This document shows, in pieces, positions 36,649-59,472 of a stretch of 59,472 nt of DNA. How positions within the stretch are numbered: position 1 is the stretch's first letter; each line of letters begins with the position of its first letter. The notes beneath the pieces are model-generated. The model was not told the origin of the DNA. It searched no databases and saw only the letters and a program-made list of their open reading frames with translations. Source of the stretch: Solirubrobacteraceae bacterium (GTDB lineage: Bacteria > Actinomycetota > Thermoleophilia > Solirubrobacterales > Solirubrobacteraceae). Both the position numbers and the translations under genes were made by a program. The stretch spans positions 1 to 59,472 of the forward strand of contig DATFQI010000391.1 of the NCBI GenBank assembly GCA_035264365.1. The letters run 5' to 3'.

Positions 36649-36666
36649 GGATCCTCCTAGCGTTCG

Positions 36667-36683: not shown

Positions 36684-36686
36684 TCA

Positions 36687-39107: not shown

Positions 39108-39243
39108 CGGCGCCAGCGAGTTGATCGTGAAACACAGGTTCGAGTGGGAGGTGCAGCCGGGCGTGCATCAGGCCGGCGGGTGCCATGGGCGCCCAGGCCG
39201 CCCGGGCTGGGCGGAGTTCTGCTCGGTCGTCGACGAGCTGTCG

Positions 39244-39471
39244 CTACTCAAACGCGCGCCGCCCACGCCCCAGCACCGCGGAGCGTGCCGCCGTGACCTT
39301 CGCGCGCCGCGGCGGCGGCTCGTCCGACAGATGCAAGTTCCCGCCGCAACGTCGGCAACTGACGCCCATCGAGAGCGTGATCTCACGGGTGATCGCCGCC
39401 CTGGAGTAGACCAGGCCGCACTGCGCGCACCGCAGCTGCGACGGTCCGGGTGCGAGGCTCAAGTGACGCAC
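39244..39471 (-). CDS. small zinc-ribbon protein (CxxC-x20-CxxC)
   Basis: Track ORF 39244..39525 trimmed to GTG 39471. This start overlaps the end of the upstream ATPase gene by 13 nt. It reads ...LRCAQCGLVYSRAAITREITLSMGVSCRRCGGNLHL... with good third-position bias. Confidence 0.5.
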   Translation of the reverse strand: MRHLSLAPGPSQLRCAQCGLVYSRAAITREITLSMGVSCRRCGGNLHLSDEPPPRRAKVTAARSAVLGRGRRAFE

Positions 39472-44956: not shown

Positions 44957-45307
44957 CCCGTCGATGCGTCAGAGGGATTCGACCGGGTGGCGGTCAGCGG
45001 CCCCATCGTGAGCGTCTACCCACGATGGCCGTGTCAGGATCCGACCGGTCACGGCTGTGCCCGACGCGCGAGCTCAAGCCGCGCGAGCGAGAAGCTCGGC
45101 GTCTGCGGACAGCGGCCCGTAGATCTCGCGCGCGAGCGTGAGGATCTCGCCCGTGTTGCGGCTGCTGACGCCGGGTCGAGCGGAGGTGCGGGACCGGTAC
45201 GGTCCGGCCACTTACAAGGCCGGTTCGCCCAGCTCGGAGCGCGGGGCAGCCTTTAGGCAAGCGGCGACCGAACCGTGTTCGGACGAGGCAAGCTGGAGGT
45301 GAAGCCA

Positions 45308-45589
45308 ATGGCGTCCGCGAGCAAGACGACGACCGACCACGACGAGATCCGCTCCTGGGTGGAGGAGCACGAGGGCAAGCCCGCCAGCGTCCGAGCCACC
45401 AGCGAGGGCGACGATCCCGGCGTGCTGCGGATCGACTTCCCCGGTGGCACCGGCGAGGAGCAGCTCGAGCACATCTCATGGGACGACTGGTTCGCGAAGT
45501 TCGACGAGACCGACCTTGCGTTCCTCTATCAGCAGGAGAAGGCCAGTGGCGAGGACAGCACGTTCTTCAAGCTCGTCTCGCGCGACTGA
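45308..45589 (+). CDS. conserved hypothetical protein (93 aa)
   Basis: Track ORF 45275..45589 trimmed to ATG 45308, with GGAGGTGA upstream. It reads TTDHDEIRSWVEEHEGKPASV...GVLRIDFPG...LEHISWDDWFAKFDETDLAFLYQ. I recognise no named domain. Confidence 0.62.
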   Translation: MASASKTTTDHDEIRSWVEEHEGKPASVRATSEGDDPGVLRIDFPGGTGEEQLEHISWDDWFAKFDETDLAFLYQQEKASGEDSTFFKLVSRD

Positions 45590-45620
45590 TCTCCGTATAA
45601 CAGCGACCTGACCCGGCAGC

Positions 45621-45644
45621 GCGAGCGGCGCGTGGGCCGCTCGC
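45621..45644 (+). terminator. GC-rich hairpin GCGAGCGGC-GCGTGG-GCCGCTCGC downstream of 45308..45589
   Basis: A 9-bp perfect stem with a 6-nt loop, starting 32 nt after the stop codon. It is followed by TCGGGTGTCTTG, a weak U tract. Confidence 0.45.
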
Positions 45645-45782
45645 TCGGGTGTCTTGAGCGTCGCTCATCGTGGGCGCGGTGCTCGCGCCGCTGCCCCGGA
45701 GCGCCGCTGAGTTGGCGCGCCGTTCAGTCCCCGCGCGCAAGGTGGCTGTGGTAGGAAGGGCCATCCAACCTAGGAGCGCTCA

Positions 45783-46193
45783 ATGGACGTAGGTCGCCTG
45801 CGGAAGATCCCGGTGTTCGCCGACGTGTCGGACGACGACCTGCGACGGATCGCCACCTTCGCGACGGAGGACAGCGCGCCCGCGGGGACGACCCTGGTAC
45901 GCGAGGGCGACTACTCGACAGAGCTGATCGCCATCGAGGAGGGCACCGCGGAGGTCCGCCACGACGGCAGGCTCCTGGCCTCGCTCGGTCCCGGAGACGT
46001 GTTCGGCGAGACCGGTGTCCTCGAGGGGGGCTTACGCAACGCGTCCGTGGTCGCGACCTCGCCGCTGCGGATCGTCAAGCTCACGACGTGGGACATCAAG
46101 CGGCTCACGCCCGAGACCGTCCAGCGGCTGCGCGAGCTCGTCGCTCAGCGCCAGCCCGCGGTGGAGCCGGACGGCGCGCCGCCGGCCGCATGA
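45783..46193 (+). CDS. stand-alone cyclic-nucleotide-binding domain protein
   Basis: ORF 45783..46193, 136 aa, with TAGGAG upstream. IPVFADVSDDDLRRIA...GDVFGETGVLEGGLRNASVVA carries the FGE...R.A phosphate-binding cassette. There is no HTH or other output. Confidence 0.85.
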   Translation: MDVGRLRKIPVFADVSDDDLRRIATFATEDSAPAGTTLVREGDYSTELIAIEEGTAEVRHDGRLLASLGPGDVFGETGVLEGGLRNASVVATSPLRIVKLTTWDIKRLTPETVQRLRELVAQRQPAVEPDGAPPAA

Positions 46194-46226
46194 AGCGCCG
46201 GGGCGCGCCACTCCCGATCGACTGTC

Positions 46227-49200
46227 GTGCCTGACACCCAGCCACTCCTTCCTTATGTGCCGCGCCTTCTGCTGCGGCACCTCGAGGAGACGCCCGAGGC
46301 GCCGCTGCGCGTCCTCGACGGGTCGCTCGTGTTCGTCGACATCTCGGGCTTCACGCGGCTCTCGGAGCGCCTGGCTCGCCAGGGACGGGAGGGGGCCGAG
46401 CGCCTGGCCGATGCGATCGACGAGTGCTTCACAGCGCTGCTGGCGGTCGCCTACGAGAACGGCGGCGGTCTCCTGAAGTTCGGCGGCGACGCGCTGCTGC
46501 TGCTGTTCGACGGCGACCAGCACCCGCAGCGAGCGTGCCGGGCGGCGTTCGGGATGCGAGCGCTGCTGCGCGAGATCGGGCGGCTGGACGCGGGCGGCGT
46601 GCAGGTCAAGCTGCGCATGTCGGTCGGCGTCCACTCCGCGGAGTGCACGTTCTTCGTGACGCGCGGGGCGCACCGCGAGCTGCTCGTGGCCGGCCCGGCG
46701 GCGACGGAGGTGGTCCGGATGGAGCACGCCGCCGGCGCGGACCAGATCGTGGTGAGCGGCGCGACGGCATCCAGGCTGCCCGCCGGTTGCACGGGCCCGC
46801 CTGCGGGGCCCGGCCGTCTGCTGCGCGAGGCGCCTCTCGCGCGGGCGGATGCCGCACCGGAGGCACGCCGGACGGCCCCCCTCCGCCTGGACACCGTGCT
46901 CTCACCGCTGCTCCGCGACCACCTACAAGGTGGTGTCGGCACGCCGGAGCACCGCATGGTGACCGTCGCCTTCCTGCGCTTCGGCCGTCTTGACGCCCTG
47001 CTCGCCGAGCAGGGCGCGGATGCGGTCGCGAGCGCTCTCGACGACCTGGTCGCGCGGACCGCCGCGGCGGCCGGGCGCCACGGTGTCTGCCTGCTCGGCT
47101 CGGACGTCGACGCCGACGGCGGCAAGCTGCTGTTGGCGGCCGGCGCACCGGTCGCCACGGGAGATGACGACGAGCGGATGCTGCTCGCGATGCGGGAGGT
47201 GCTCGAGGGCGGCGGAGCGCTGCCCATCAAGATCGGCGTGCACCGCGACGCCGTGTTCGCCGGCGACATCGGTCCCGCGTACCGCCGGACCTACACGGTC
47301 ATGGGAGACGCAGTCAATCTCGCTGCTCGGCTCATGCTCGCCGCGCCCGAGGGCGAGCTCTACGCGACCGAGCGGGTCGTCGACGGCTCCGGCACGCGCT
47401 TCGAGGTCGCGCGCATGGCGCCCTTCCGCGTCAAGGGCAAGGCGCGTCCCGTCGACGCGCTGTCCGTAGGCCTGGCCCTCGGCGGCCGGAGCCGGGAGTC
47501 CCTGCTGGCCGACCGGCGCTTCGCGCTGGTGGGACGCCGCCGCGAGACCGAAGCCTTCGAAGCCGCCGTCGCGAGCGTGCGCGACGGGCGCGGGCGGGTG
47601 CTCGACATCGTCGGCGAGCCCGGGATCGGCAAGAGCCGGCTGCTCGAGGAGCTCAGGATCCGCGCGAGCGACCTGCGCGGGCTGCAGGTCACGTGCGAGG
47701 CGTACACCGCGGACGTCCCGCACGTGGCCTCGCGGCAGCTGCTGCACCAGGTGCTGCGCATTCCTCTGGACGCCGACGCCGCCCATGTGGAGTCTCGCCT
47801 GCGCGCCGCCGTCGCCGCCGCCGAGCCGGTGCTCGAACCGTGGCTGCCGCTGCTCGCGATCCCCCTCGGGCTCGACCTCCCGCCCACGCAACAGGTCGCC
47901 CACCTCGACGGCGAGTATCGGCGCGACAAGCTCCACGAGGTGGTCGTGGCGTTCCTGCGTGCGACGCTCAAGGCGCCGACGCTGATCGAGGTGGAGGACG
48001 CGCATCACGTCGATCCCGCCTCGACCGGGCTCCTCGCCGCTGTCGCGGCGGCCGCCCCGGACGCGCCGTGGCTGCTGGTTGTGACACGGCGTGACGCCGG
48101 CCCGGGCGTCGCGACGCATGCGGCGGTCGAGCGCATCGAGCCGGAGCCGCTCACCTCCGCCGAGACGCTGGCCCTCGCACGTGACGCGACGGCGCACGTG
48201 CCGCTGCCGCCGCGGGTGCTCGAGATCGTCGCGGAGCGCTCCGGCGGCAATCCGCAGTTCCTCCGGGACCTCCTGCGCTCTGCCGCCCGGGACGGTGCCG
48301 AGCACCTCCCCGAGAGCATCGAGGCGGCCGCCGCGGCGCGGCTCGACCGCCTTCCGCCCGCGGATCGCACGCTCGTCCGGCGCGCGGCCGTCCTCGGGCG
48401 CGCGTTCGACCCGGCCCTGATCGGGCTGGTGCTCGACGAGGACGCGCAGCCGCCGGACGCGGCGACGTGGGCTCGGCTGCACCGTTACGTCGAGCCCGAC
48501 GGTGACTGGTTCCTGCGCTTCCGTAGACAGGTCGTGTGGGAGGCCGCGTATACCGGGCTCCCGTTCCGGACCCGCCGCCGTCTCCACCTCCGCGCGGGCC
48601 TCGAGCTCGAGCGGCGCGGCGGCGATGACGCCGTGCTGGCACTGCACTTCGAGCGCGCCGGCGACCACGAGCGCGCGTACCGCTACGCGCGACGGGCCGG
48701 GGACGCCGCGGTACGGGACCTCGCTCCGGCCGAGGCATCCGTGGCGTACCGGCGTGCGCTCGAGGCGGGGCGGATGCTCGGCGTACCGGCGGGCGAGCGC
48801 TCGGCGGTGTGGGAGTCCCTGGGCGACGCGCATGCGCAGCTCGGCGAGCTCGCCGCGGGCCACCACGCCTTCTCCGCTGCCCGCCGACTCGCCGCAGACG
48901 ACCCGATCCGCCGGGCGCAGCTGATGCTGCGCCACGCCGAGCTCTCGGTCGAGGCCGGCCGGATCCGGCCCGGTGTGCGCTGGGCGCTGCGCGGGCTGCG
49001 GACGCTCGACGCGGTGGAGGGTCCTGAGGCCGCCGCGGCCCGGGTGCGGCTGACAGCCATGCTCGCGACGCTGCGTCAGCGTCAGGGGCGGGCGGCCGAG
49101 GCGATCGCGCTCTGCCGCGCCGCGATCCCCGCCGCGGAGGCGGCCCGCGAGGACAGGGCCCTCGCCCATGCCTGCTACGTCCTGGACTGGGCGCTCGTGG

Positions 49201-50036
49201 AGTCGGGGCGCGCCGTGGAGGCCGGGTTCTCCGACCGGGCGCTGGCGATCTACCGCCGGCTCGGCGACGTGGGCCGGGAGGCGGCGGTGCTCAACAACGC
49301 CGGCGGGTTCGCGTATCGCGACGGGCGCTGGAAGGACGCGATGGACCTCTACGTTCAGGGCGCGGAGGCGAGCGCCCGCTCGGGCAACTCGGCCAACGCG
49401 GCGTTCGGCGACTGCAACGTCGGCGAGCTGCTCTCGGATCAGGGTCACTGGGAGGAGGCCGAGATGCTGCTGAGCCGCGCGCGCCAGGTGTGGCGCGGGA
49501 CCGGCTACGAGTGGGGCGTCGCGTACGCCACCGCGCAGCTCGGCCGGCTCGCCGCACGCTCCGGGCAGGCCGGTCAGGCGCTCACCAGGCTGCTCGACGC
49601 ACTCGCGCGGTTCCGCGAGCTGGGCGTCGAGGGCGACGTGCAGTTTGCGGAGGCGCTGCTGGCGGAGGCTGCCGCGTTTGCGGGCGACGGAGAGACCGCA
49701 CGGGCGACGGCTGACCGGCTGCTCGCCGACGGGGACGTGGGCCTGCTCGAGCCGTTGCTCCATCGCGTCAAGGCGATCTCCCTCGCCCAGCGCGGCGACG
49801 TCGACGGTGCGACGGTGGCGCTCGAGGCGGCACTCGACGCCGCGCGGGCGCAGGAGCAGGACTACGAGACGCTGGTGGCGCTCGACGCGCGGGCGCTACT
49901 GACGCGCTTCGACGCCGCAGCGACGCGCCGAGCCGAGCTGGCCGCTCGGCTCGGGGTTGCGCGTCTGGCCGCTCCGCCGCTCACTATGGCCGGTACGCCG
50001 GATCCTCCGCGCCGGCCGGAGCCCGCACCTCGATGA
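46227..50036 (+). CDS. tandem class III cyclase domains + P-loop STAND/AAA ATPase + TPR-like repeats
   Basis: ORF 46227..50036, 1269 aa, GTG start 33 nt after the cNMP-binding gene. CHD1 has FVDISGFT and KFGGDA. CHD2 has YTVMGDAVNLAARL. The P-loop is VGEPGIGKSRLLEEL (about 47613-47660). The long helical repeat C-terminus carries TPR-like ...ALAIYRRLGD...AGGFAYRDGRW... units. Confidence 0.88.
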   Translation: MPDTQPLLPYVPRLLLRHLEETPEAPLRVLDGSLVFVDISGFTRLSERLARQGREGAERLADAIDECFTALLAVAYENGGGLLKFGGDALLLLFDGDQHPQRACRAAFGMRALLREIGRLDAGGVQVKLRMSVGVHSAECTFFVTRGAHRELLVAGPAATEVVRMEHAAGADQIVVSGATASRLPAGCTGPPAGPGRLLREAPLARADAAPEARRTAPLRLDTVLSPLLRDHLQGGVGTPEHRMVTVAFLRFGRLDALLAEQGADAVASALDDLVARTAAAAGRHGVCLLGSDVDADGGKLLLAAGAPVATGDDDERMLLAMREVLEGGGALPIKIGVHRDAVFAGDIGPAYRRTYTVMGDAVNLAARLMLAAPEGELYATERVVDGSGTRFEVARMAPFRVKGKARPVDALSVGLALGGRSRESLLADRRFALVGRRRETEAFEAAVASVRDGRGRVLDIVGEPGIGKSRLLEELRIRASDLRGLQVTCEAYTADVPHVASRQLLHQVLRIPLDADAAHVESRLRAAVAAAEPVLEPWLPLLAIPLGLDLPPTQQVAHLDGEYRRDKLHEVVVAFLRATLKAPTLIEVEDAHHVDPASTGLLAAVAAAAPDAPWLLVVTRRDAGPGVATHAAVERIEPEPLTSAETLALARDATAHVPLPPRVLEIVAERSGGNPQFLRDLLRSAARDGAEHLPESIEAAAAARLDRLPPADRTLVRRAAVLGRAFDPALIGLVLDEDAQPPDAATWARLHRYVEPDGDWFLRFRRQVVWEAAYTGLPFRTRRRLHLRAGLELERRGGDDAVLALHFERAGDHERAYRYARRAGDAAVRDLAPAEASVAYRRALEAGRMLGVPAGERSAVWESLGDAHAQLGELAAGHHAFSAARRLAADDPIRRAQLMLRHAELSVEAGRIRPGVRWALRGLRTLDAVEGPEAAAARVRLTAMLATLRQRQGRAAEAIALCRAAIPAAEAAREDRALAHACYVLDWALVESGRAVEAGFSDRALAIYRRLGDVGREAAVLNNAGGFAYRDGRWKDAMDLYVQGAEASARSGNSANAAFGDCNVGELLSDQGHWEEAEMLLSRARQVWRGTGYEWGVAYATAQLGRLAARSGQAGQALTRLLDALARFRELGVEGDVQFAEALLAEAAAFAGDGETARATADRLLADGDVGLLEPLLHRVKAISLAQRGDVDGATVALEAALDAARAQEQDYETLVALDARALLTRFDAAATRRAELAARLGVARLAAPPLTMAGTPDPPRRPEPAPR

Positions 50037-51291
50037 CGCCGTTGCCGGCCCGGTCCTTACGTCGGGACGCCACGCACGGGGGCGTGCCGCAGTCGGGCAG
50101 CGTGGCGTAGTACCAGTCGATCGCGCCGTCGCCGTCGATGTCGGCTTCCTGCGGTGCTCCACCGGCCCGGGTCGGGAACGTGAACGGCGCGGCGAAGCAC
50201 ATCTGCAGGGATGATGCGCCGTTGTCGGGACTGGCGTTCATCACACGCTTGTCGATCGAGTAGACGACGCGCTTCTGCCGGTCCGGCCCGAGGACGAGCG
50301 CCCAGTCGGCAGACAGCTCCTGATAGCCGGTGCAGTCCGGCCTGAAGCCGGTGTTGAACGAGAGCTGGAGGAAGCCGGCGTCCGTGGCAGGGCCGGCGAA
50401 GGCGCTGGCGTCGACGTTCGAGCGGGGCGTGCTGAGCGAACCGGAGCAGTCGACGTCCTCCACGCACTCGATCGCCAGCTGCTGGATCGTGAAGAGCGCC
50501 GAGACAGCAGGCTCCAGCCCCGGCGCGGAGGCCTGCAGGCGGTAGCTGCCAGGCGCGTCGACGCTGAGGTCGCCGAACGCCGCGAAGCCCGCCGCCGCGG
50601 TCACGGAATTCTGACCGAGCAGTGTTCCCAGGCCACCGGCGGAGGCGAGGTCGACGGAGACCGTGGGAGCCGACGACGTCAGGCGGTTGCCCCCGCCGTC
50701 GACCACCTCGACCGAGACGGGCGGTCCGGCGGGATCGAAGTCTGCGGCGCTGATCCGCTCGCCGACACGCGCGTCCTGCGGCTGGGCGGCGAAGCGCAGT
50801 GCGCAGCCGCCGGTCACCGCGGTGGTGAGCACCTCCGGAGAGGAGACCAGCACGAAGTCGTTCCCCGGAGAGCCGTTGAACCGGTTCGCCTGCTTGGCCA
50901 GCACGCTCCATGCGTACTCGCCGGCGGCGCACCCGGCGTCGACGGTCACGGCGACCTGGACCGCCGCACCGGGTGCCAGCGAGAGGTTGCGCAGCTCGAT
51001 CACATTGCCGCGGACCGTCGCGGAACCGGGGCCGGGCAGCGACACGGCATGGACCGTCAGCGCCGAATGCACCGTCAAGTTCGCCGAGCCGAGATCCTGC
51101 TGATCGGACTGGTTCTCGATCGTCGCCGTGACGACGGACTGCTGGCCGGCCGGGATGGACGCCGGCGTCAGGACGACGCTGTACGGCTTGACCTCCGCGC
51201 CGGCGGCCGCCGGCAGCAGCATGATCGCGAGGAGCGCGCCGGCAACGATCCATGGGTGCGCCTTCCGAAGGCGCGGGGGCGAGACGGGCAT
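49984..51291 (-). CDS. secreted multi-domain (Ig-like/CARDB-like repeats) protein
   Basis: Track ORF 49984..51363 trimmed to ATG 51291, with AAAGGAGAG upstream. The signal peptide is WIVAGALLAIMLLPAAAGA. Beta-rich domains follow (TATIENQSDQQDLGSANLTV...; RFAAQPQDARVGERISA...SYRLQASAPGL). The C-terminus is Cys-rich. Confidence 0.65.
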   Translation of the reverse strand: MPVSPPRLRKAHPWIVAGALLAIMLLPAAAGAEVKPYSVVLTPASIPAGQQSVVTATIENQSDQQDLGSANLTVHSALTVHAVSLPGPGSATVRGNVIELRNLSLAPGAAVQVAVTVDAGCAAGEYAWSVLAKQANRFNGSPGNDFVLVSSPEVLTTAVTGGCALRFAAQPQDARVGERISAADFDPAGPPVSVEVVDGGGNRLTSSAPTVSVDLASAGGLGTLLGQNSVTAAAGFAAFGDLSVDAPGSYRLQASAPGLEPAVSALFTIQQLAIECVEDVDCSGSLSTPRSNVDASAFAGPATDAGFLQLSFNTGFRPDCTGYQELSADWALVLGPDRQKRVVYSIDKRVMNASPDNGASSLQMCFAAPFTFPTRAGGAPQEADIDGDGAIDWYYATLPDCGTPPCVASRRKDRAGNGVIEVRAPAGAEDPAYRP

Positions 51292-51403
51292 GCGAGTGCA
51301 CTCTCCTTTTCCCGCCCTCGGTCGAGGCCGGTCCGTGGCGCGGCCTTGCGCCGAGGTGCCCACTCTCTCCGACCGACCGTTGCGCTGTCAAGCATCGTGT
51401 TGA

Positions 51404-54400: not shown

Positions 54401-54670
54401 GAGGTCGGCCAGCCGGCCCGCGGCGACCAGGAACGCCGCGAACACGATGTTGTAGGCGTTCAGGATCCATGACAAGGACGCGATCGACGCGTCGGGGTAC
54501 GAGCGGGCGATGTCCGGGAACGCGATGTTGACGATCGTCGCGTCGACGAATGCCATGGCGGCGCCCAGCGAGGCGACCGCCAGCACCGTCCGCGCCTGTG
54601 GTCCGCGACGGCGTGCCACGGTTGGGGCGGGCGGAGCGACCTCCGCCGGCTCGGCATGCGTGGTGGCCAT
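51404..54670 (-). CDS. three-part fusion: DHA2-type MFS transporter + cyclic-nucleotide-binding domain + patatin-like phospholipase (NTE-like)
   Basis: Track ORF 51404..55291 trimmed to ATG 54670 (MATTHAEP...). The MFS part reads FVDATIVNIAFPDI and GRLADLVGRRRVF. The cNMP cassette is GDAVGELALLTGEPRAASVRA. The patatin motifs are LSGGGARAF (oxyanion), GVSMGSF (GxSxG) and IDGSLVDNLP (DG[AG]). Confidence 0.85.
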   Translation of the reverse strand: MATTHAEPAEVAPPAPTVARRRGPQARTVLAVASLGAAMAFVDATIVNIAFPDIARSYPDASIASLSWILNAYNIVFAAFLVAAGRLADLVGRRRVFIAGLELFTIASALCAIAWSPGALVAFRVLQALGAALLVPSSLALVLEAFPPERRSHGVALLSAVAAGAAGLGPSLGGLLVAAGDWRLVFLVNLPIGVAAIVLTRRHLVESRAPGRRRVPDLTGALVLAVAIAALVLGVVKGEEWGWLSGRVLGSFVVAIALVALFARRCVTHRAPIVDLSLLRDRTFGVTNAMTLVTGAGFYGYTLVNVLFLTAVWQYSVLEAGLAMTPGPFVAAAVAGPTSHLVTRFGPRPVLVAGGLVWCAAVVWLVTRVGTTPDFIGEWLPAVALLGVGAGALLPNLTAAAAASAPGTEYATATSLNSVARQIGAALGVAVVVAILGTPSATEAAAAFDRAWAFGAACFLVAGLGCLFVGRPPGSEAPSLGAAARAVLQERLTEAMPAPPPAARRAISVDAAQPAAPRAETAADFLARVPMFAGLDPALRDAVAQRARPLRVAAGEWLFREGESGDALYVLRAGRMHVLEGATGAMIREIGRGDAVGELALLTGEPRAASVRAARDTDLLAVYRDDFEELLATAPALPLALARTLAGQLREMRAPARSTRPRPATVAVLAVDRGMPSDTIASGLAGALGRHLDATFLGARDAPSTVNGSEPAGLYGPLLDRAEGQHDLVVLDAGVADDDDGWTGFCLQQADRILVLVSHGPLPAAVAARHELRGCDLVAYGVAPGSGVLDAVAAALEPIETHVLRPDDLDEDLARLGRRLAGRSVGVVLSGGGARAFSHIGVLEELTAAGVTIDRVAGVSMGSFVGALFAMGLNADEIDARCFEEWVQRRPLADYTLPRHALIRGERARAMLERTFGTVAIEELPRSFMSGSTELRSGRLQVDRWGPLYEAVGFSVCLPVVAPPQVRGRELFIDGSLVDNLPVRVMADMGEGPVIAVDVKPTAERPDAGARPSGGVPRPPRLGETLTRVLLLGSANTSEAARRHADLVIKPRAEGVSLLEFHQIDVAREAGRVAAREALAEAPRNLFG

Positions 54671-54855
54671 CGCGCGGGTCGAGTGTCTTCGATCGGGCCC
54701 CGCGAGGCAAGTCTGGCGGCGGCTGGACTCTTCACCTAGATCGGCGTTGCCGCGGGCAACGCGGGGACCTTGGACGCCGGCCGATGGCGCGCGGGTGCAG
54801 GATGGAAGAAGATCGCTCTCGTGGCCGGCGTGACGAAGAGCGCCTCGGTTGCGAG

Positions 54856-55455
54856 CTACTCGCTCGCTGAGTCGCGCAGCTGCGTGAGGGAGATGGCGCC
54901 GCGCCGCAGCGCCTCGTTGGCGAGCCGCGCGCGGCGCGAGCCCTCGGCGGCGACGGCGAACTTGTCGTACAGGTTGGCCAGATGCTGCTTGACCGCGGCC
55001 TGCGTGATGACGAGCTCCTCGGCGATCGCCTGCGTCGACGCCGGCTCCGTGAACATGTCGCGGTCCAGCAGCGGACGACACAGCGCCAGGAGGACGTCCC
55101 GCTCGCGCGTGGTCAGCGCCGGCGGCGCCTCGTCGGCCTGCGTCACCGTGGCACCGGCGGCCAGCGGGTCGTGGAACACCAAGCGGGTCTGGCCGATGCG
55201 GATCTCGTCGCCATGCTGGAGGCGGTGCGAGGACCAGACCCGCTCGCCGTTGATCGCCGTGCCGTTGGACGACCCGAGGTCGCTCACGCACCAGCCCGCC
55301 GAGAAGCGCTCCAGGACGGCATGCAGGCGACTCGCGGTCGGGTCGTCCTCGAGCGGCACGTCGTTCTCGGGCGCCTTGCCGATCGTGACACGGTCAGCCT
55401 CCAGCGGGATCCGCCGGCTGCGTACTCCGGAGATCACCTCGATCTGCGGGGCCAC
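54856..55455 (-). CDS. FHA-domain + LuxR/GerE HTH transcriptional regulator
   Basis: Only the last 199 codons of track ORF 54856..57234 look real. From GTG 55455 (alternative GTG 55437) it reads RVTIGKAPENDVPLEDDPTASRLHAVLERFSAGWCVSDLGSSNGTAINGERV (FHA). It continues with LTTRERDVLLAL...TQAIAEELVITQAAVKQHLANLYDKF (HTH). Confidence 0.8.
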   Translation of the reverse strand: MAPQIEVISGVRSRRIPLEADRVTIGKAPENDVPLEDDPTASRLHAVLERFSAGWCVSDLGSSNGTAINGERVWSSHRLQHGDEIRIGQTRLVFHDPLAAGATVTQADEAPPALTTRERDVLLALCRPLLDRDMFTEPASTQAIAEELVITQAAVKQHLANLYDKFAVAAEGSRRARLANEALRRGAISLTQLRDSASE

Positions 55456-55470
55456 CGTGCCGTCAAGCCT

Positions 55471-58400
55471 ATGGCGCGGAGCAACGGCTCGATGAGCGAA
55501 CCGCTCCTGGAGGGCCGCATGCTGCACGGGCGCTACGAGGTCTTGGAGACGCTCGGCGTGGGCGGCGAGGCGCGCGTCGTCAGGGCGCTCGACCATCGCC
55601 ACGAGCGTCTGGTCGCGTTGAAGATCCGGCGGGTGCGCGATGACGCGGCGCGCGAGAGCCTGCTCCGCGAGGCCCGGCTGCTGCTCGGCCTCCAGCCGCA
55701 CCCGGCGCTGCCGCTTGTCCGCGAGGATTTCTTCGTCGACGACGAGTACGTCGTCGCGATGGACTGGGTCGACGGGACCGACCTGGCGTGGATCCTGGCC
55801 GAGCGCGGAGCGCCCGGACTGGCGCCCTCCAGCGTCGTGGCCTACCTCGCCGAGGCCGCCGAGGCGCTGATGTTCCTGCACGCGCAGGAGCCGCCGATCG
55901 TGCACGCCGACGTCAAGCCGGCGAACCTGATCCTGACTCGCGGCGGGCACGTCAAGCTCGTGGACTTCGGGCTCTCGTCCACGCCGCTGATGCTCGGGAG
56001 CCGCTCGGGAACGACCGGCTACCGCGCCCCGGAGCTCGCGACGGGCTCCCCGCCGTCGCGCGCGAGCGACGTGTACGCGCTGGCGGCGACGGCCTTCGCG
56101 CTGCTGACCGGGGCTCCGCCGCAGGGGGTGCTGCCGGCCTGGGAGGGAATCGACCCGGCCCTGGCCGAGCAGCTCGAGAGCGCGATCCGCCTGGGGCTCG
56201 CGACGGACCCGGCGCGGCGGCCGGCGACGCCGGGTGAGCTCGTCGAGCGGCTGCGCGCCGGTTGGGGAGCGACGCTCCCGGCGGGCGTGACGACGTTCTG
56301 CCTGTCGGACATCGACTCCTCGACGGTGCTGTGGGAGCAGGATCCCGGCGCGATGGCGGCGGTGCTCGTCCGCCACGACGAGCTCGTCGCGGGGGCGGTG
56401 GAGTCGCACGGTGGCCGCTTCCTGAAGTCCAAGGGCGAAGGGGACGCGACCTTCTCGGTGTTCGAGTCCGCGTCCGGCGCGGTGCAGGCGGCGATCGCCG
56501 CGACGCGCGCGCTCGGCGCCGAGCGGTGGCCGAACGGCTGGAGCATCGCGGCCCGTTTCGGGATCCATACCGGCGAGGCCGAAAGACGCGATACCGACTA
56601 TTTCGGCCCGGCGGTCAACCTCGCGATGCGCGTGCGCGGGCAGGGTGGCGGCGGCGAGATCCTGCTGTCGCGGCTCACGGCGGGTCTGACGGCGAAGCAC
56701 CTGCCGGCGGGGTACTCGCTCGTCGACCTCGGCCCTCACCGCCTTCGCGCCGTCGAGGGTCCCCAGACGCTGCACGCGGTCGCAGGCCCCGGCGTCACCG
56801 CGCCGGCGCCGGCGAGCCGGTGCCCCTACCGCGGGCTGCTGGCGTTCGACGCGGACGACCGCGCCTTCTTCTTCGGGCGCGAGGTCGTGCTCGGCTCGGT
56901 CATCGAGCGGATCGCAACGCGGCGCCTGCTCGCGCTCGTGGGAGCGTCGGGCAGTGGGAAGTCCTCGCTGCTGCGCGCCGGCCTGATCGCGTCCGTCAGT
57001 GCCGGGGAGGTGCCCGGGGTTACGAGCGCGCGGCTGGTGCATCCCGGGGCGCGGCCGCCGGCGGCGATCGACGGCGGCGCCGCGACCCTCGTCGTCGTGG
57101 ACCAGTTCGAGGAGCTGTACACGCTCTGCGACGACCCTGGCGAGCGGGGGCGCTTCATCGATTCGTTGCTCGCCCATACCGGACCGGTGGCGATCGCCGT
57201 GCGCGCCGACTTCTACGGCGAGCTGAGCGCGCATCCTGAGCTGGCGAGCGCGGTGGCCTCCAACCAGATCCTGCTCGGCGCGATGAGCGAGGAAGAGCTG
57301 CGCCGCGCGGTGACCGAGCCGGCGCGCATCGCCGGGCTGCGGCTCGAGCCCGGACTCGTCGACGTCGTCCTCGGCGAGGTCGCCGGCGAGCCGGGGGCCC
57401 TGCCCCTGCTCTCACACGCGCTGCGCGCGACCTGGGAGCGGCGCGACGGACGCACCCTGACCGTCGACGCGTACCGGGCCACCGGCGGGGTGACCTCGGC
57501 CGTCGCGCAATCGGCGGACGCGCTGGTCGAGGCGATCCCCGCCGGAGAGCGAGACCTGCTGCGCAACGTCTTCCTGCGGCTGACGGAGCTCGGCGACGGG
57601 GTCGAGGACACGCGACGGCGGGTGCCGATCGACGAGCTCGTCCCCCAGGACGTCCCGGGAGACACCGTTCGCGACCTGCTCGGCCGCTTCGCCGCTGCCC
57701 GGCTCCTCACGCTCGGGGAGGGGACTGCGGAAGTAGCGCACGAGGTGCTGATCCGCCAGTGGCCGACCCTGCGGGGCTGGCTCGAGGAGGATCGCGAGGG
57801 TCTGCGCCTGCACCGGCGGCTCGGCGACGCTGGGCGCATCTGGGAGGCCGCGGGGCGCGATCCCACGGACCTCTACCGCGGCGCCCGGCTCGCCGCCGCA
57901 CTCGAATGGGCGCAGGTGCATCAGGATGCCCTGAACGCGACGGAGCGCGCGTTCCTCGACGCGAGCATCGCCGAATCCGAGCGCGAGCGGCGGGTGCAGC
58001 TGCGGGCCAACCGCCGCCTGCGCGCATTGCTCACCGTCGCAGGGGTACTGCTCGTGGCCGCGACGGTGGCGGGCCTACTGGCGCTCCGGGAAAGCGGCGA
58101 CGCGCGGGACTCCGCACGGAGCGCCGACGCACAGCGGCTCGGCGCTCAGGCGCTGATCGACGACCGGCTCGATCGGAGCCTCCTGCTCGCCCAAGCCGGC
58201 CGCGTGCTCGACGACACCGTGGTCACCCGCAGCCACCTCCTGTCGGCGCTCGTGCGCCCTCCCGGCGCGGTCGGCGTGATGCAGGGCGGCGGGGACCCGC
58301 TCTACGCGCTGTCACTGAGCCCCGACGGGCGGATGCTCGCCACCGGCGGCGAGAGCGGGACCCTCTTGCGCTTCGACCCGCGGTCGCGCCGGAGGATCGG

Positions 58401-59472
58401 TCGTCCGATCCAGGTGGACGGCCCCATCGTGAGCCTCGACTTCTCGCCGAACGGCACCTTGCTGGCCGCCAACGGCGGCATCGGCGGAGGACGTGAGGTC
58501 GTGAGGCTGATCGAGCCGGCAACCGGACGCACCGTGCGCGATATCGAGTTCTCCGACCCGCGCTCGGGCGATGGATACGGCTTCACGGACATCCGGTTCG
58601 GGCCGGGCGGAGGGACTGTGGTGGTGACGACGTTCTTCGCGGCGGCCGGACAAGTGCCGCACCCCGCTCACGTCCGTCGCTTCGATGTGCGCAGCGGGAG
58701 GCAGCTGGGGCGCGTCTTGCGTGTGGGCCGACCGGACACGGTCGCGCCTGTCGTCGTGACACGGCGTGACCGCCTCGTTCTCACGGGGACCGCCGAGAAC
58801 GCGACGTACGTGGTGGACACGGCGACGCTGCGTGTGCGGAAGCGGCTCCCGAGCGGGGCGTTCACCGCCGGGCTGGCTCTCGACGGCCGCCGTACCGCCC
58901 TCGGCGGCGAGGACGGCAGCGTCACGCTTCTGGACCTCCGCACGGGGAAGCGCCGGCGGTTGGCGGACCGGCACGACGGTCGAGTGCAAGAGCTCGCATT
59001 CAGCGCGGACGGGCGCACACTGGCGACCGTCGGCGACGACGGCCGCGGGCTGGCATGGGACCTGCGCCGCGGCCGCGTGCGGGAGACGCTGACCGGCCAC
59101 AGCGGACGGGTCACCCACGTCAACGTCTCAGACGATGGACGCACCCTCTACACGACCGGTGTCGACAGCCGGATCATCGTCTGGGACATCGCGGGCGACC
59201 GGCGCCTCGCGCAGCCCTTCCCTGGCGGCAACCCGCTCGGGGAGGGTCTCGTGCCCGCGCTCGCCGTCAGCCCCGACGGCCGACGGCTCGCCGCGGGCCT
59301 CCGCGGCGGCGGCGTCCGGCTCCGCGACGCCCGCACGCTGCGACTGCAGGGCGAGCTCCCGGGGCTCGACGGGGACGCCGCGCTGGCCGTCGAGTTCAGC
59401 CCTGACGGGCGCACGATCGCGGTGACCGGCAGCGGTGGGAGCGTCGCGCTGCGCGACGCGCGCAGCGGCCGG
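55471..59472 (+). CDS. Ser/Thr kinase + class III cyclase + nSTAND-type P-loop NTPase + TM helix + WD40/beta-propeller repeats (3' end beyond the right edge)
   Basis: Absent from the ORF track because it has no stop in the window. I translated 1334 uninterrupted codons from ATG 55471 (alternatives 55492, 55519). The kinase has GVGGEARVVRA..LVALK, IVHADVKPANLIL, VDFGLS and GYRAPE. The cyclase has TFCLSDIDSSTVLWE, KSKGEGDATFSVF and YFGPAVNLAMRVR. The nSTAND part has CPYRGLLAFDADDRAFFFGRE, Walker A GASGSGKSSLLRAG and Walker B LVVVDQFEEL. The TM helix is LLTVAGVLLVAATVAGLLAL (~58020-58090). Repeated ...SPDGR.LA.G...G.V.L.D... blades run from ~58300. Confidence 0.87.
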   Translation, partial: MARSNGSMSEPLLEGRMLHGRYEVLETLGVGGEARVVRALDHRHERLVALKIRRVRDDAARESLLREARLLLGLQPHPALPLVREDFFVDDEYVVAMDWVDGTDLAWILAERGAPGLAPSSVVAYLAEAAEALMFLHAQEPPIVHADVKPANLILTRGGHVKLVDFGLSSTPLMLGSRSGTTGYRAPELATGSPPSRASDVYALAATAFALLTGAPPQGVLPAWEGIDPALAEQLESAIRLGLATDPARRPATPGELVERLRAGWGATLPAGVTTFCLSDIDSSTVLWEQDPGAMAAVLVRHDELVAGAVESHGGRFLKSKGEGDATFSVFESASGAVQAAIAATRALGAERWPNGWSIAARFGIHTGEAERRDTDYFGPAVNLAMRVRGQGGGGEILLSRLTAGLTAKHLPAGYSLVDLGPHRLRAVEGPQTLHAVAGPGVTAPAPASRCPYRGLLAFDADDRAFFFGREVVLGSVIERIATRRLLALVGASGSGKSSLLRAGLIASVSAGEVPGVTSARLVHPGARPPAAIDGGAATLVVVDQFEELYTLCDDPGERGRFIDSLLAHTGPVAIAVRADFYGELSAHPELASAVASNQILLGAMSEEELRRAVTEPARIAGLRLEPGLVDVVLGEVAGEPGALPLLSHALRATWERRDGRTLTVDAYRATGGVTSAVAQSADALVEAIPAGERDLLRNVFLRLTELGDGVEDTRRRVPIDELVPQDVPGDTVRDLLGRFAAARLLTLGEGTAEVAHEVLIRQWPTLRGWLEEDREGLRLHRRLGDAGRIWEAAGRDPTDLYRGARLAAALEWAQVHQDALNATERAFLDASIAESERERRVQLRANRRLRALLTVAGVLLVAATVAGLLALRESGDARDSARSADAQRLGAQALIDDRLDRSLLLAQAGRVLDDTVVTRSHLLSALVRPPGAVGVMQGGGDPLYALSLSPDGRMLATGGESGTLLRFDPRSRRRIGRPIQVDGPIVSLDFSPNGTLLAANGGIGGGREVVRLIEPATGRTVRDIEFSDPRSGDGYGFTDIRFGPGGGTVVVTTFFAAAGQVPHPAHVRRFDVRSGRQLGRVLRVGRPDTVAPVVVTRRDRLVLTGTAENATYVVDTATLRVRKRLPSGAFTAGLALDGRRTALGGEDGSVTLLDLRTGKRRRLADRHDGRVQELAFSADGRTLATVGDDGRGLAWDLRRGRVRETLTGHSGRVTHVNVSDDGRTLYTTGVDSRIIVWDIAGDRRLAQPFPGGNPLGEGLVPALAVSPDGRRLAAGLRGGGVRLRDARTLRLQGELPGLDGDAALAVEFSPDGRTIAVTGSGGSVALRDARSGR

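What the first reader, a model, noticed from the sequence alone, without database searches (positions are those of the whole stretch)
45783..59472. Cyclic-nucleotide / STAND-NTPase island: two sensor-cyclases flanking a cNMP-gated patatin phospholipase
The last 13.7 kb of the window holds five signalling genes.
(i) A stand-alone cNMP-binding protein.
(ii) 33 nt downstream, a tandem-cyclase protein fused to a STAND/AAA P-loop ATPase and TPR-like repeats.
(iii) An MFS-cNMP-binding-patatin fusion.
(iv) An FHA-LuxR regulator.
(v) Divergently, a kinase-cyclase-nSTAND-TM-WD40 giant.

That gives two nucleotide 'writers', each hard-wired to a STAND-type sensor. It gives two cNMP 'readers', one of them a membrane-anchored phospholipase. 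It also gives a phospho-Thr reader next to the kinase.

The logic resembles nucleotide-second-messenger immunity. CBASS uses patatin effectors activated by a cyclic nucleotide. Pycsar uses class III-type cyclases with cNMP-binding effectors. It also resembles STAND/NLR-like sensors such as Avs. However, I know of no described system in which the cyclase is the direct output of a STAND sensor and the effector is an MFS-anchored cNMP-patatin.

The alternative reading is ordinary cAMP housekeeping signalling. Mycobacterium tuberculosis encodes similar single proteins: cyclase-ATPase-TPR of the Rv0386 type and MFS-cNMP-NTE of the Rv3239c/Rv3728 type. The sequence alone cannot separate these readings. 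The clustering itself is the observation.
Basis: partly seen in the sequence, partly recalled or inferred. Interest (0 to 1): 0.75.

Follow-up and report, generated by a model that had tools for sequence, protein, structure and literature searches.

The report
Two juxtaposed actinobacterial signalling modules
The last 13.7 kb of the window holds six real genes forming two separately conserved signalling units: a cyclase resembling mammalian soluble adenylyl cyclase with cAMP-binding partners, including a membrane phospholipase, and a receptor kinase/cyclase with its transcription factor. The two units lie side by side only in this species and show no sign of being a phage-defence island.

Summary
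A sixth gene, C (a secreted beta-sandwich protein), was missed. The organism is a Solirubrobacterales-like member of the Thermoleophilia.

The "island" is a composite of two blocks:
- **Block 1 (A-B/C-D)** is collinear in relatives at 75-92% identity.
- **Block 2 (E/F)** is a divergent pair conserved across Thermoleophilia.

No sampled relative has the two blocks adjacent. Homology breaks at about 54744-54765.

- **B** is not an Rv0386 type. It is a soluble-adenylyl-cyclase (ADCY10)-type enzyme: complementary C1-C2 catalytic domains, then a STAND P-loop, then TPR.
- **D** belongs to the NTE/PNPLA6 family (cNMP-binding, NTE P-loop-like and patatin domains) on a DHA2 MFS anchor.
- **F** is a non-RD kinase, cyclase, nSTAND1, TM and WD40 protein.
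- **E** is FHA plus LuxR.

Cyclase genes are enriched next to D-like genes, in at least ten arrangements. However, B-like genes rarely have D-like neighbours, and B is a pseudogene in one relative that keeps A and D.

The evidence argues for ordinary cAMP and Ser/Thr signalling rather than defence. All genes are under purifying selection, nothing is found on plasmids or phages, and only domain-level PADLOC matches appear.

The parts
45783..46193 (+). Gene A: stand-alone cyclic-nucleotide-binding protein, 136 aa. Phosphate-binding cassette FGETGVLEGGLRNASVVA, aa 74-91.
   Evidence: Pfam cNMP_binding 1.7e-14. An ortholog at 76% identity with dN/dS 0.21 is present in L082. A-like genes lie directly upstream of B-like genes in 8 metagenome loci and in L043/L046.
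46227..50036 (+). Gene B: sAC-type cyclase, 1269 aa (the JGI call starts at 46257). C1 catalytic domain about 46323-46778; C2 about 46950-47444; AAA_16/STAND P-loop 47526-48074; arm and TPR 48144-50033.
   Evidence: Pfam. The best solved-structure match for both C1 and C2 is human/rat ADCY10, 3.4e-17. Invariant in homologs at 40% identity: D38, K84 and D88 in C1; K300, D361, N364 and R368 in C2; Walker A GEPGIGKS 463-470; D591; and 673-676 and F678 of the GGNPQF motif (673-678).
49984..51291 (-). Gene C: signal-anchored extracytoplasmic protein, 435 aa, made of beta-sandwich (Ig-like) domains. It is convergent with B and their 3' ends overlap by 53 nt.
   Evidence: Coding statistics. No Pfam family above threshold. 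AlphaFold2 model pLDDT 84.9, with only generic Ig-like/macroglobulin/cohesin fold matches at TM no more than 0.31. A C-like gene lies convergent to B-like in 10 metagenome loci and in L043.
51404..54670 (-). Gene D: NTE-family phospholipase on an MFS anchor, 1088 aa. DHA2-type MFS about 53264-54586; cNMP-binding domain 52772-53020 (cassette GELALLTGEPRAASVRA); NTE P-loop-like domain about 52211-52660; patatin 51716-52192 (GGGAR 831-835, GVSMG 858-862, DG 974-975).
   Evidence: Pfam. NCBIfam EmrB subfamily 233 bits. NTE_Ploop PF24179 scores 16.7 bits in D and passes the gathering threshold in the 78%-identical homolog P0008. The catalytic motifs align with PlpD. More than 1500 homologs were found.
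54745..54764 (.). Junction between the two independently conserved blocks.
   Evidence: Homology to block-1 relatives ends at 54744 (L079) or 54693 (L080/L081). Homology to block-2 relatives begins at 54765 (L083/L084).
54856..55455 (-). Gene E: FHA (55192-55389) plus LuxR/GerE HTH (about 54946-55116) regulator, 199 aa.
   Evidence: Pfam FHA 3.2e-19 and GerE 6.2e-6. The listed best hits among 2336 homologs are 72-97% identical and 177-341 aa long, mostly 199-202 aa.
55471..59472 (+). Gene F, 5' part; about 240 aa are missing beyond the window end. Non-RD Ser/Thr kinase 55534-56274; class III cyclase domain 56293-56763; nSTAND1 NTPase 56824-57864; TM helix 58024-58080; WD40 propeller(s) 58276-59472. 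The likely true start is 55492.
   Evidence: Pfam and PADLOC. The cyclase domain's best PDB match is Ma1120, 5e-15. Motifs and the TM segment are conserved in orthologs. The ortholog in L083 is 1571 aa, divergent from E with a 37-nt gap.

Best explanation
The stretch is not one system. It is two conserved signalling modules that a lineage-specific rearrangement has placed side by side.

**Module 1 (A, B, C, D): a cAMP module.**
- B is a bacterial counterpart of full-length soluble adenylyl cyclase. Its C1 domain supplies the two metal-binding Asp residues. Its C2 domain supplies the Lys/Asp adenine readers and the Asn/Arg transition-state residues. One polypeptide therefore forms one active site (shown from sequence).
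- Its MalT-like STAND P-loop and TPR region presumably gates activity by nucleotide-dependent opening or oligomerisation in response to an unknown ligand (inferred from what is known of STAND proteins).
- The cAMP made is read by the small cNMP-binding protein A. A is co-transcribed with B and may act as a feedback partner or buffer (inferred).
- It is also read by the PKA-like cNMP-binding domain of D. D is an NTE/PNPLA6-family Ser-Asp lipase held at the membrane by a DHA2-type MFS domain. Ligand binding would release its (lyso)phospholipase activity for membrane-lipid remodelling (inferred).
- D is probably served by whichever cyclase is local. In this genus that is B.
- C is a surface beta-sandwich protein linked to B by conserved convergent synteny. 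Its role is unknown.

**Module 2 (E, F): a receptor-type Ser/Thr kinase pathway.**
- F's extracytoplasmic WD40 propeller binds a ligand.
- nSTAND1-driven clustering activates the non-RD kinase and dimerises its cyclase domain.
- E's FHA domain reads the phospho-Thr marks, and its LuxR HTH changes transcription (inferred; PknH-EmbR logic).

Both modules are chromosomal, vertically inherited regulatory genes rather than a phage-defence island.
For: **Two modules.**
- Block 1 is collinear with L079 (90% nt identity, window 46944-54744) and L080/L081 (82-83%). A, a B remnant and D are present in L082. None of these relatives has E or F upstream of D; they carry P-II, STAS or HisKA genes instead.
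- Block 2 is collinear with L083 (79%, from 54765) and L086-88. E and F are adjacent but convergent in L085. None has D beside E.

**B is sAC-type.** One search gives the PDB matches, another the invariant catalytic and Walker residues, and (PMC12802110) the sAC STAND domain. Bacterial sAC-like cyclases are already known (PMC11006738).

**D is NTE-type and intact.**

**Coupling of cyclases with D-like genes.**
- 28 of 78 genome loci have a cyclase gene within 10 kb.
- Density is 4.2, 3.1, 2.7 and 0.35 per 100 kb in successive 2.5-kb bins, in at least ten distinct arrangements. The comparison figure from other flanks is about 0.9 per 100 kb.
- The arrangement A, B, C, D recurs with D inverted in L043/L046.

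**Not defence.**
- dN/dS is 0.1-0.4 for every gene, and B's TPR is its most conserved part.
- E's listed homologs are 72-97% identical.
- No full-length B or D occurs on 72,556 plasmids, and no full-length D on 50,697 phages.
- PADLOC gives only domain-level hits, with no Avs-like model.
- The neighbours are metabolic and regulatory genes.
Against: - The B-to-D link is loose. None of the 80 metagenome loci with full-length B-like genes has a patatin or D-like gene in its flanks; about 31 of them have more than 3 kb downstream.
- 50 of 78 D-like loci have no cyclase within 10 kb.
- In L082, B is a pseudogene while A and D stay intact.
- The enrichment statistics are not corrected for phylogeny, and the background density is rough.
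- The flanks of D differ in every close relative, which is also a trait of variable islands.
- F's WD40 region evolves two to five times faster than the rest of the protein (dN/dS 0.47-0.71). nSTAND1 was defined in predicted conflict systems (PMC8195603).
- No ligand, nucleotide product, lipase substrate or phosphorylation event has been shown.
Confidence: 0.55

Rival explanations
1. **No dedicated coupling.** The six genes are independent members of a large cAMP and phospho-signalling repertoire. D and A respond to the global cAMP pool, and B, D and F are neighbours through ordinary genome shuffling. The only true functional pairs would be A-B (an operon) and E-F.
For: - No D-like gene lies next to any of 80 B-like loci.
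- Most D-like loci lack a nearby cyclase.
- B has decayed in L082 while A and D are intact.
- The two blocks are adjacent only in this species.
Against: - Cyclase genes are several-fold denser within 7.5 kb of D-like genes than farther out or in other flanks. They occur in at least ten different arrangements, some immediately adjacent, for example L010, L030, L054 and L061.
- The A, B, C, D set recurs in a distant clade with a different gene orientation.
Confidence: 0.3
2. **Cyclic-nucleotide abortive-infection defence**. STAND sensors in B and/or F detect infection and make a nucleotide signal. That signal switches on D's patatin lipase to destroy the membrane, in a way that parallels Pycsar or CBASS and uses NLR-like sensing.
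For: - The architecture is parallel: a sensor-fused cyclase, a cNMP-binding domain and a patatin domain.
- There are weak PADLOC domain hits to PycC, to the PycTIR cNMP-binding part and to a CBASS phospholipase.
- nSTAND1 was described in predicted conflict systems with kinase and FHA parts.
- F's WD40 region diverges fast.
- D's flanks are variable and B has been lost in one relative.
Against: - There is no CD-NTase, and no Pycsar-type two-gene unit with a TIR or TM effector.
- B carries the canonical Lys/Asp adenine-specifying residues, all invariant. That points to cAMP, a general messenger.
- B's TPR sensor is its most conserved region (dN/dS 0.13-0.15).
- F's sensor lies beyond a TM helix, so it is unlikely to meet intracellular phage proteins.
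- The WD40 repeats show no high-identity repeat diversification.
- D and E are strongly conserved and syntenic within their blocks.
- Nothing is found on plasmids or phages.
- No mobile-element genes are nearby, and the only defence-model match elsewhere in the window is a lone RecQ-like helicase 24 kb away.
Confidence: 0.1

Closest known systems
Full-length soluble adenylyl cyclase (ADCY10/sACfl) and bacterial sAC-like cyclases (e.g. Chloroflexus)
   Same: B has tandem, complementary C1 and C2 class III domains whose best solved-structure matches are sAC C1 and C2. These are followed by a P-loop STAND module. sACfl is described with a predicted STAND/P-loop domain (PMC12802110). The C1 Lys equivalent to sAC K95 is conserved (K84).
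   Different: B is bacterial and 1269 aa long. No haem or autoinhibitory segment was identified. C2 keeps the canonical Asp (GDAVN), where sAC has GQKVN. Bicarbonate, Ca2+ and pH responses are untested. Homology of the STAND/TPR part to sAC's C-terminus could not be checked, because no solved structure matched it.
M. tuberculosis Rv3728 / Rv3239c and eukaryotic NTE/PNPLA6
   Same: D combines a cNMP-binding domain, the NTE-family P-loop-like domain and a patatin Ser-Asp lipase. Like Rv3728 and Rv3239c it is fused to an MFS 'efflux pump' domain. The architecture of those two proteins is from my own knowledge (McCue et al. 2000). They are listed as MFS pumps of unknown role in PMC6300501.
   Different: D has one cNMP-binding domain, whereas NTE has three (own knowledge). 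NTE uses a single TM anchor rather than an MFS domain. I did not compare D's sequence directly with the mycobacterial proteins. No member of this bacterial group has a demonstrated ligand or substrate.
Rv0386 / Rv1358 / Rv2488c type cyclases (cyclase-ATPase-LuxR HTH)
   Same: A class III cyclase is fused N-terminally to an AAA_16/STAND ATPase with helical repeats. Single-cyclase versions of this layout do sit next to D-like genes in other Solirubrobacterales, for example L001, L010, L022 and L040.
   Different: B has two complementary catalytic domains rather than one homodimerising domain. It has no GerE/LuxR HTH.
Pycsar (PycC cyclase plus cNMP-binding effector)
   Same: A class III-fold cyclase is encoded next to proteins with cNMP-binding domains. 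There are weak PADLOC hits to PycC (E 2e-9) and to the cNMP-binding part of PycTIR (E 4e-14).
   Different: The effector domain is a patatin on an MFS anchor, not a TIR or pore-forming TM domain. The cyclase carries the canonical adenine-specifying Lys/Asp. The gene pair is not compact, mobile or patchily distributed. The PADLOC matches are no stronger than those to PKA or generic Pfam domains.
CBASS with CapV patatin effector
   Same: A patatin phospholipase is presumably switched on by a cyclic nucleotide.
   Different: There is no CD-NTase. The patatin domain matches the PADLOC CBASS phospholipase over only about 55 residues (23 bits). The ligand-binding module is a classical cNMP-binding domain.
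nSTAND1 NLR-like proteins of multicellular bacteria (Kaur et al. 2021)
   Same: F has a full-length PF20703 match (E 1.6e-113) with an N-terminal kinase 'effector' and C-terminal repeat 'sensor'. That paper names kinase and FHA domains among the partners.
   Different: - A cyclase domain sits between the kinase and the NTPase.
- A TM helix sits between the NTPase and the WD40 region.
- No EAD or Death-like adaptor domains were seen.
- F and E form a conserved syntenic pair across Thermoleophilia, rather than a patchy, diversifying system.
PknH-EmbR type kinase / FHA-transcription-factor pairs of Actinobacteria
   Same: A receptor-like Ser/Thr kinase with an extracytoplasmic propeller-type sensor is encoded next to a regulator that joins an FHA domain to a DNA-binding domain (own knowledge for PknH-EmbR; domains; synteny).
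   Different: The DNA-binding domain is LuxR/GerE rather than SARP. The kinase is non-RD (HAD/HGD) and carries extra cyclase and STAND modules.

Membership tests
sAC (ADCY10)-type cyclase | Two class III catalytic domains in one chain, most similar to sAC C1 and C2 | tested here: met
   phmmer against the PDB: the top four distinct sequences are all ADCY10 (3.4e-17). Query aa 12-177 align to sAC 22-191, and aa 333-374 to sAC 382-423. Both domains pass the Pfam gathering threshold.
sAC (ADCY10)-type cyclase | Complementary catalytic residues: metal-binding Asp pair in C1; base-reading and transition-state residues in C2 | tested here: met
   C1 has FVDISGFT (D38) and KFGGD (K84, D88) but GPAATEVVR in place of GDxxNxxxR. 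C2 has R in place of the first Asp but keeps K300, D361, N364 and R368. All are invariant in alignment A1.
sAC (ADCY10)-type cyclase | C-terminal STAND P-loop module with helical repeats | tested here: met
   AAA_16 6.1e-17 and TPR_12. Walker A, the Asp of Walker B and the GxP motif are conserved. The sACfl STAND prediction is cited in PMC12802110. Direct homology to sAC's C-terminus was not testable (one search found no PDB match).
sAC (ADCY10)-type cyclase | Activation by bicarbonate, Ca2+ or pH | not testable with these tools
   Only the K95-equivalent Lys (K84) can be seen. The R176-equivalent is ambiguous by one column.
Rv0386-type cyclase-ATPase-HTH | Single catalytic domain plus C-terminal LuxR-type HTH | tested here: not met
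   Two Guanylate_cyc domains and no GerE hit in B.
NTE/PNPLA6 family (including Rv3728-type MFS fusions) | cNMP-binding domain(s), NTE P-loop-like domain and patatin domain in that order | tested here: met
   cNMP_binding 1.6e-19 and Patatin 2.5e-26. PF24179 NTE_Ploop scores 16.7 bits in D (below the gathering threshold) and 27.5 bits (above it) in the 78%-identical homolog P0008.
NTE/PNPLA6 family (including Rv3728-type MFS fusions) | Intact patatin catalytic motifs (GGGxR, GxSxG, DG) | tested here: met
   SGGGAR 830-835, GVSMG 858-862 and IDGS 973-976, aligned with PlpD 5fqu.
NTE/PNPLA6 family (including Rv3728-type MFS fusions) | Direct sequence relationship to Rv3728 / Rv3239c | not tested
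The architecture comparison rests on my own knowledge (McCue et al. 2000) and on PMC6300501.
Pycsar | PycC-family pyrimidine cyclase | tested here: inconclusive
   PADLOC PycC hits to B are only local and weak (E 2.3e-9, 35 bits). B's invariant Lys/Asp specificity residues are those of adenylyl cyclases. The product cannot be determined with these tools.
Pycsar | Adjacent effector made of a cNMP-binding domain fused to TIR or membrane-disrupting TM helices | tested here: not met
   A has no effector domain. D's effector is patatin on a DHA2 MFS transporter. Matches to PycTIR models cover only the cNMP-binding part.
CBASS | CD-NTase (cGAS/DncV-like) signal synthase | tested here: not met
   No CD-NTase model was hit by any of the six proteins, or by the families listed for the 38 other window proteins. 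The cyclases here are class III.
Avs / antiviral STAND (NLR-like) defence | Match to a known antiviral STAND model | tested here: not met
   PADLOC on the STAND-plus-sensor parts gave no family for B. For F it gave only P-loop-level hits (E 2e-4 and 6e-4) to mad8 and mad3.
Avs / antiviral STAND (NLR-like) defence | Patchy, mobile, fast-turnover distribution in defence islands | tested here: not met
   The blocks are conserved and syntenic with purifying selection. There are no plasmid or phage copies. The neighbours are metabolic and regulatory genes. Caveat: D's upstream flank differs in each relative.
nSTAND1 STAND NTPases | PF20703 NTPase domain with N-terminal effector and C-terminal repeats | tested here: met
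   nSTAND1 1.6e-113 over 378 of 379 model positions, Pkinase at the N-terminus and WD40 at the C-terminus. Walker A GASGSGKS is conserved.
Kinase / FHA-regulator pair (PknH-EmbR-like) | Conserved adjacency of a Ser/Thr kinase gene and a gene for an FHA-plus-DNA-binding protein | tested here: met
   E and F are adjacent in L083 and L086-88 (divergent; 37 nt in L083, 48 nt in L086 and L087/L088) and in L085 (convergent).
Kinase / FHA-regulator pair (PknH-EmbR-like) | Phosphorylation-dependent binding of the regulator to the kinase or its substrates | not testable with these tools
   Only motifs are visible. The kinase has VALK, HAD, DFG and APE. The FHA domain has GK (in place of GR), SxxH and NG.

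The most novel reading that the evidence does not exclude
Module 1 would be a previously undescribed cyclic-mononucleotide suicide or stress switch. A soluble-adenylyl-cyclase-type enzyme, whose STAND-TPR module senses an invader or damage cue, would drive an NTE-like membrane phospholipase through a classical cNMP-binding domain. That would be a Pycsar-like logic built from eukaryote-type parts. Module 2 would be an NLR-like surface receptor feeding the same nucleotide pool.
Probability: 0.1. Interest if true: 0.8.

Novelty: new variant of a known kind. Interest (0 to 1): 0.38.

Why it matters
It clears away an attractive but unsupported defence-island reading. It also leaves two usable leads.

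**B and the sAC STAND domain.** B-type proteins are bacterial versions of full-length soluble adenylyl cyclase. The role of that enzyme's STAND domain is still unknown in mammals; a 2025 biochemical study found no regulator specific to the full-length form (PMC12802110). B comes with conserved genomic partners (a small cNMP-binding protein and a surface protein) that could be tested as regulators.

**D and the NTE family.** To my knowledge, whether cyclic nucleotides regulate NTE-family lipases is unresolved. D-type proteins belong to that family, as do the orphan M. tuberculosis 'efflux pumps' Rv3728 and Rv3239c. The recurrent presence of cyclase genes beside them gives a concrete hypothesis that can be tested biochemically: a cAMP-gated lysophospholipase at the membrane.

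**F.** Its kinase-cyclase-nSTAND1-TM-WD40 layout, conserved with an FHA-LuxR partner, is an unusual case of a STAND NTPase separated from its sensor by a membrane.

Tried and rejected
1. **tRNA-flanked genomic island.** ARAGORN called a 90-nt 'tRNA-Ala' at 45653-45742, just before gene A. Rfam found no tRNA or any other RNA family in the window, the sequence lacks tRNA hallmarks, and no related locus has a tRNA. I rejected it as a false positive.
2. **Hypervariable WD40 repeats of the fungal NWD/HET-E kind.** No high-identity tandem repeats lie in 57900-59472.
3. **Solved-structure relatives of the STAND/TPR part of B and the nSTAND1 part of F.** None found.
4. **Promoter and terminator scan of 45200-56000.** Nothing found, as expected at 72% GC.
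5. **Structure of C.** The model is confident, but it matches only generic beta-sandwich folds, so it gives no functional clue.
6. **Structure prediction from my own locus-derived alignment.** I redid it with database homologs.
7. **Full text of the 2004 actinobacterial cyclase survey (PMC2447327).** Only the abstract and references are held.
8. **The first genome-collection scan** failed and was repeated.
9. **Plasmid and phage searches for D, and a plasmid search for B.** Only single-domain matches.

Full report
**Observation**

The window is 72% G+C. Real genes stand out by codon-position GC: GC1 about 0.75, GC2 about 0.5 and GC3 about 0.9. In 45783-59472 this identifies six genes:
- A, 45783-46193 (+)
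- B, 46227-50036 (+)
- C, 49984-51291 (-)
- D, 51404-54670 (-)
- E, 54856-55455 (-)
- F, 55471/55492 to the window end (+)

A JGI gene call on a 99.7%-identical metagenome contig (L169) gives the same set.

A has cNMP_binding. B has two Guanylate_cyc domains, AAA_16 and TPR. D has MFS_1, cNMP_binding and Patatin. E has FHA and GerE. F has Pkinase, Guanylate_cyc, nSTAND1 (E 1.6e-113) and WD40, with one hydrophobic helix between the NTPase and the WD40 region.

Homologs identify the organism as a Solirubrobacterales/Thermoleophilia bacterium.

**The island is two modules**

I fetched loci around relatives of D and of E.

*Relatives of D.* These are 92%, 87% and 75% identical in protein.
- L079 is collinear with window 46944-54744, and L080/L081 up to 54693. 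This covers B, C and D.
- L082 has A, a decayed B and D.
- Upstream of D they carry P-II/GntR, STAS or histidine-kinase genes. None carries E or F.

*Relatives of E.*
- E is extremely conserved. The best 120 listed homologs, out of 2336, are 72-97% identical.
- L083 and L084 are collinear with the window from 54765 onward. L083 and L086-88 keep a divergent E/F pair 37-48 nt apart. L085 keeps E and F adjacent but convergent. None has D beside E.

The two homology blocks therefore meet at about 54745-54764. Their juxtaposition, 'two cyclases flanking the patatin', was seen only in the window's own population (window, L169, L170).

**What B is**

The best solved-structure matches of B's N-terminal 430 residues are mammalian soluble adenylyl cyclase (ADCY10), for both its C1 and C2 domains (E 3.4e-17).

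The two domains are complementary:
- C1 keeps both metal-binding aspartates and the Lys that corresponds to sAC K95 (FVDISGFT, KFGGD). It has lost the Asn of the GDxxNxxxR motif.
- C2 has lost the first aspartate. It keeps K300, D361, N364 and R368 (YTVMGDAVNLAARL).

These residues, the Walker A motif (GEPGIGKS), a Walker B aspartate, and the core of the STAND GxP motif (GGNP and the following Phe) are invariant in homologs only 40% identical. B is thus a single-chain pseudo-heterodimeric adenylyl cyclase with canonical adenine-specifying residues, fused to an apparently functional STAND NTPase and TPR array.

This is the layout reported for full-length sAC, which is described with a predicted STAND/P-loop domain of unknown function (PMC12802110). 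Bacterial sAC-like enzymes are already known to respond to bicarbonate (PMC11006738). B is therefore not the Rv0386 type, which has one catalytic domain and a LuxR HTH.

Full-length B-like genes are common in soil metagenomes. 337 confirmed matches were found, and the 80 loci fetched are mostly 39-52% identical (one partial match at 82%).

**What D is**

- The MFS part belongs to the DHA2/EmrB subfamily.
- The cNMP-binding domain resembles PKA and PKG regulatory domains. Its phosphate-binding cassette, GELALLTGEPRAASVRA, is of the PKA 'RAA' type.
- The segment between the cNMP-binding and patatin domains is the NTE-family P-loop-like domain, PF24179. The match is weak in D but above threshold in a 78%-identical homolog.
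- The patatin domain keeps GGGxR, GxSxG and DG, aligned to PlpD.

D is therefore a bacterial NTE/PNPLA6-type lipase on an MFS anchor. From my own knowledge, this is the architecture of M. tuberculosis Rv3728 and Rv3239c, which are still listed as efflux pumps of unknown function (PMC6300501). D has more than 1500 homologs, and the genome representatives fetched from many Solirubrobacterales species are 60-70% identical.

**Is the cyclase linked to the lipase?**

*Seen from D.*
- 28 of 78 genome loci carry a class III cyclase gene within 10 kb.
- Density falls with distance: 4.2, 3.1, 2.7 and 0.35 genes per 100 kb in successive 2.5-kb bins. The flanks of B-like genes give about 0.9 per 100 kb.
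- The cyclases are of several kinds and occur in at least ten arrangements, some immediately adjacent.
- In a distant Actinomycetota clade (L043, L046, L047, L048, L059; D 45-47% and B 39-41% identical), a B-type gene again lies next to a D-type gene. In L043 and L046 a small cNMP-binding gene precedes B, and in L043 a C-like ORF lies between B and D, with D in the opposite orientation to the window.

*Seen from B.*
- None of 80 B-like loci has a D-like gene, although about 31 have more than 3 kb of downstream flank.
- Eight have an A-like gene directly upstream.
- Ten have a C-like gene convergent just downstream.
- In L082, B is a pseudogene: the AAA_16 domain and most of the TPR are deleted. 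A and D remain under purifying selection.

My reading is that A-B is a tight unit and that B/C is a conserved but unexplained pair. D-type lipases are cAMP effectors that often, but not necessarily, sit next to a cyclase. In this genus that cyclase is B.

**Module 2**

- F's kinase is catalytically complete. It is of the non-RD type (HAD/HGD) in all orthologs.
- Its cyclase domain is most similar to Ma1120. It keeps the metal, Asn and Arg positions in every ortholog, with Pro at the Asp specificity position.
- The Walker A motif and the TM helix are conserved.
- The WD40 region, presumably extracytoplasmic, is much more divergent than the rest: 54% against 77-86% identity in L083, with dN/dS 0.47-0.71. 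It shows no high-identity repeat diversification.
- nSTAND1 was defined in predicted 'conflict systems' that can carry kinase and FHA domains (PMC8195603).

Here, however, F and E form a strongly conserved syntenic pair. That fits a receptor-kinase and FHA-transcription-factor pathway of the PknH-EmbR kind (own knowledge).

**Defence or housekeeping?**

Evidence against a defence island:
- PADLOC gives only domain-level matches: weak PycC, the cNMP-binding part of PycTIR, and generic kinase models. It gives none to the STAND-plus-sensor parts.
- There is no CD-NTase.
- No full-length B or D occurs on 72,556 plasmids, and no full-length D on 50,697 phages.
- All genes evolve under purifying selection. 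B's TPR 'sensor' is its most conserved part (dN/dS 0.13-0.15).
- The neighbours are a sigma factor, SnoaL and AHSA1 proteins, a SpoIIE phosphatase, two-component systems, cytochrome bd and G6PD.
- No real tRNA, integrase or RNA element marks an island.

Points that keep a small probability alive:
- D's upstream flank is variable.
- B has been lost in one relative.
- F's ectodomain evolves fast.
- nSTAND1 has a literature association with conflict systems.

**Verdict**

The writer-to-reader logic is plausible within module 1, and the kinase-to-FHA logic within module 2. The cluster as a whole is a lineage-specific juxtaposition, and the immunity reading is not supported.

The parts belong to known kinds: sAC-type cyclase, NTE/Rv3728-type lipase, nSTAND1 kinase and FHA-LuxR regulator. 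What I have not seen described is the conserved A-B/C(-D) neighbourhood and the kinase-cyclase-nSTAND1-TM-WD40 layout. These give testable hypotheses for two orphan regulatory domains: sAC's STAND module and NTE's cNMP-binding domain.

Noticed in passing
window 45653-45742: ARAGORN calls a 90-nt 'tRNA-Ala(CGC)' 41 nt upstream of gene A. Rfam finds no tRNA anywhere in the window, and the sequence lacks tRNA hallmarks. It is probably a false positive in GC-rich DNA rather than an island integration site.
   Followed up: yes
window 21008-22576 (-): A RecQ-family helicase gives very strong PADLOC matches to DpdF (1.6e-151) and PsyrT (1.4e-85). No model for another Dpd component appears among the families listed for the 38 other window proteins, so it may simply be a housekeeping RecQ.
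   Followed up: no
window 36200-39400: This stretch has atypical codon-position GC (GC3 0.75-0.82 against about 0.9 elsewhere). My coding filter called no confident gene there. It contains a TetR-like ORF (36684-37328 +) and ambiguous overlapping long ORFs.
   Followed up: no
L001-L026 and many others, about 8200-9900 in locus coordinates: Most Solirubrobacterales genomes carry a soluble paralog (cNMP-binding, NTE P-loop-like and patatin domains, no MFS) directly upstream of, and co-directional with, the MFS-fused D-like gene. The window and its close relatives lack this tandem partner at the locus.
   Followed up: partly
L028 13416-14000; L068 13451-14026: An FHA-LuxR protein 46-50% identical to E lies directly downstream of a D-like gene in two MAGs. 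In the window, E lies directly upstream of D. This may hint that FHA-LuxR regulators and NTE-like lipases are linked, or it may be coincidence.
   Followed up: partly
L082 14516-16103: The B ortholog is a pseudogene, with frameshifts and with the AAA_16 domain and most of the TPR deleted. The adjacent A ortholog (76% identity, dN/dS 0.21) and D ortholog remain intact. C is replaced there by DUF1269 and Amphi-Trp genes.
   Followed up: yes
window 49984-50036, and L089, L090, L092, L116, L140, L142, L148, L155, L168, L043: B and the secreted beta-sandwich protein C are convergent with overlapping or nearly abutting 3' ends. This convergent pairing recurs in loci whose B-like gene is only 39-52% identical. 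No explanation is offered for a link between a cytoplasmic cyclase and a surface protein.
   Followed up: partly
window 55903-55926 (F aa 145-152): F's kinase has HAD (HGD in orthologs) instead of the HRD motif, making it a non-RD kinase. In eukaryotes this class is associated with pattern-recognition receptors (own knowledge).
   Followed up: partly
window 55456-55491: E and F are divergent with only 15-36 nt between their start codons (37 nt in L083, 48 nt in L086 and L087/L088). This implies leaderless transcripts or promoters embedded in the coding regions.
   Followed up: no
L079 14682-17735; L080 14596-17689: The B orthologs in these long-read-style metagenome contigs are split over two or three reading frames. 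Whether this is sequencing error or incipient pseudogenisation cannot be told. In L080 the AAA_16/arm region is only 44-51% identical, with dN/dS 0.5-0.7.
   Followed up: partly
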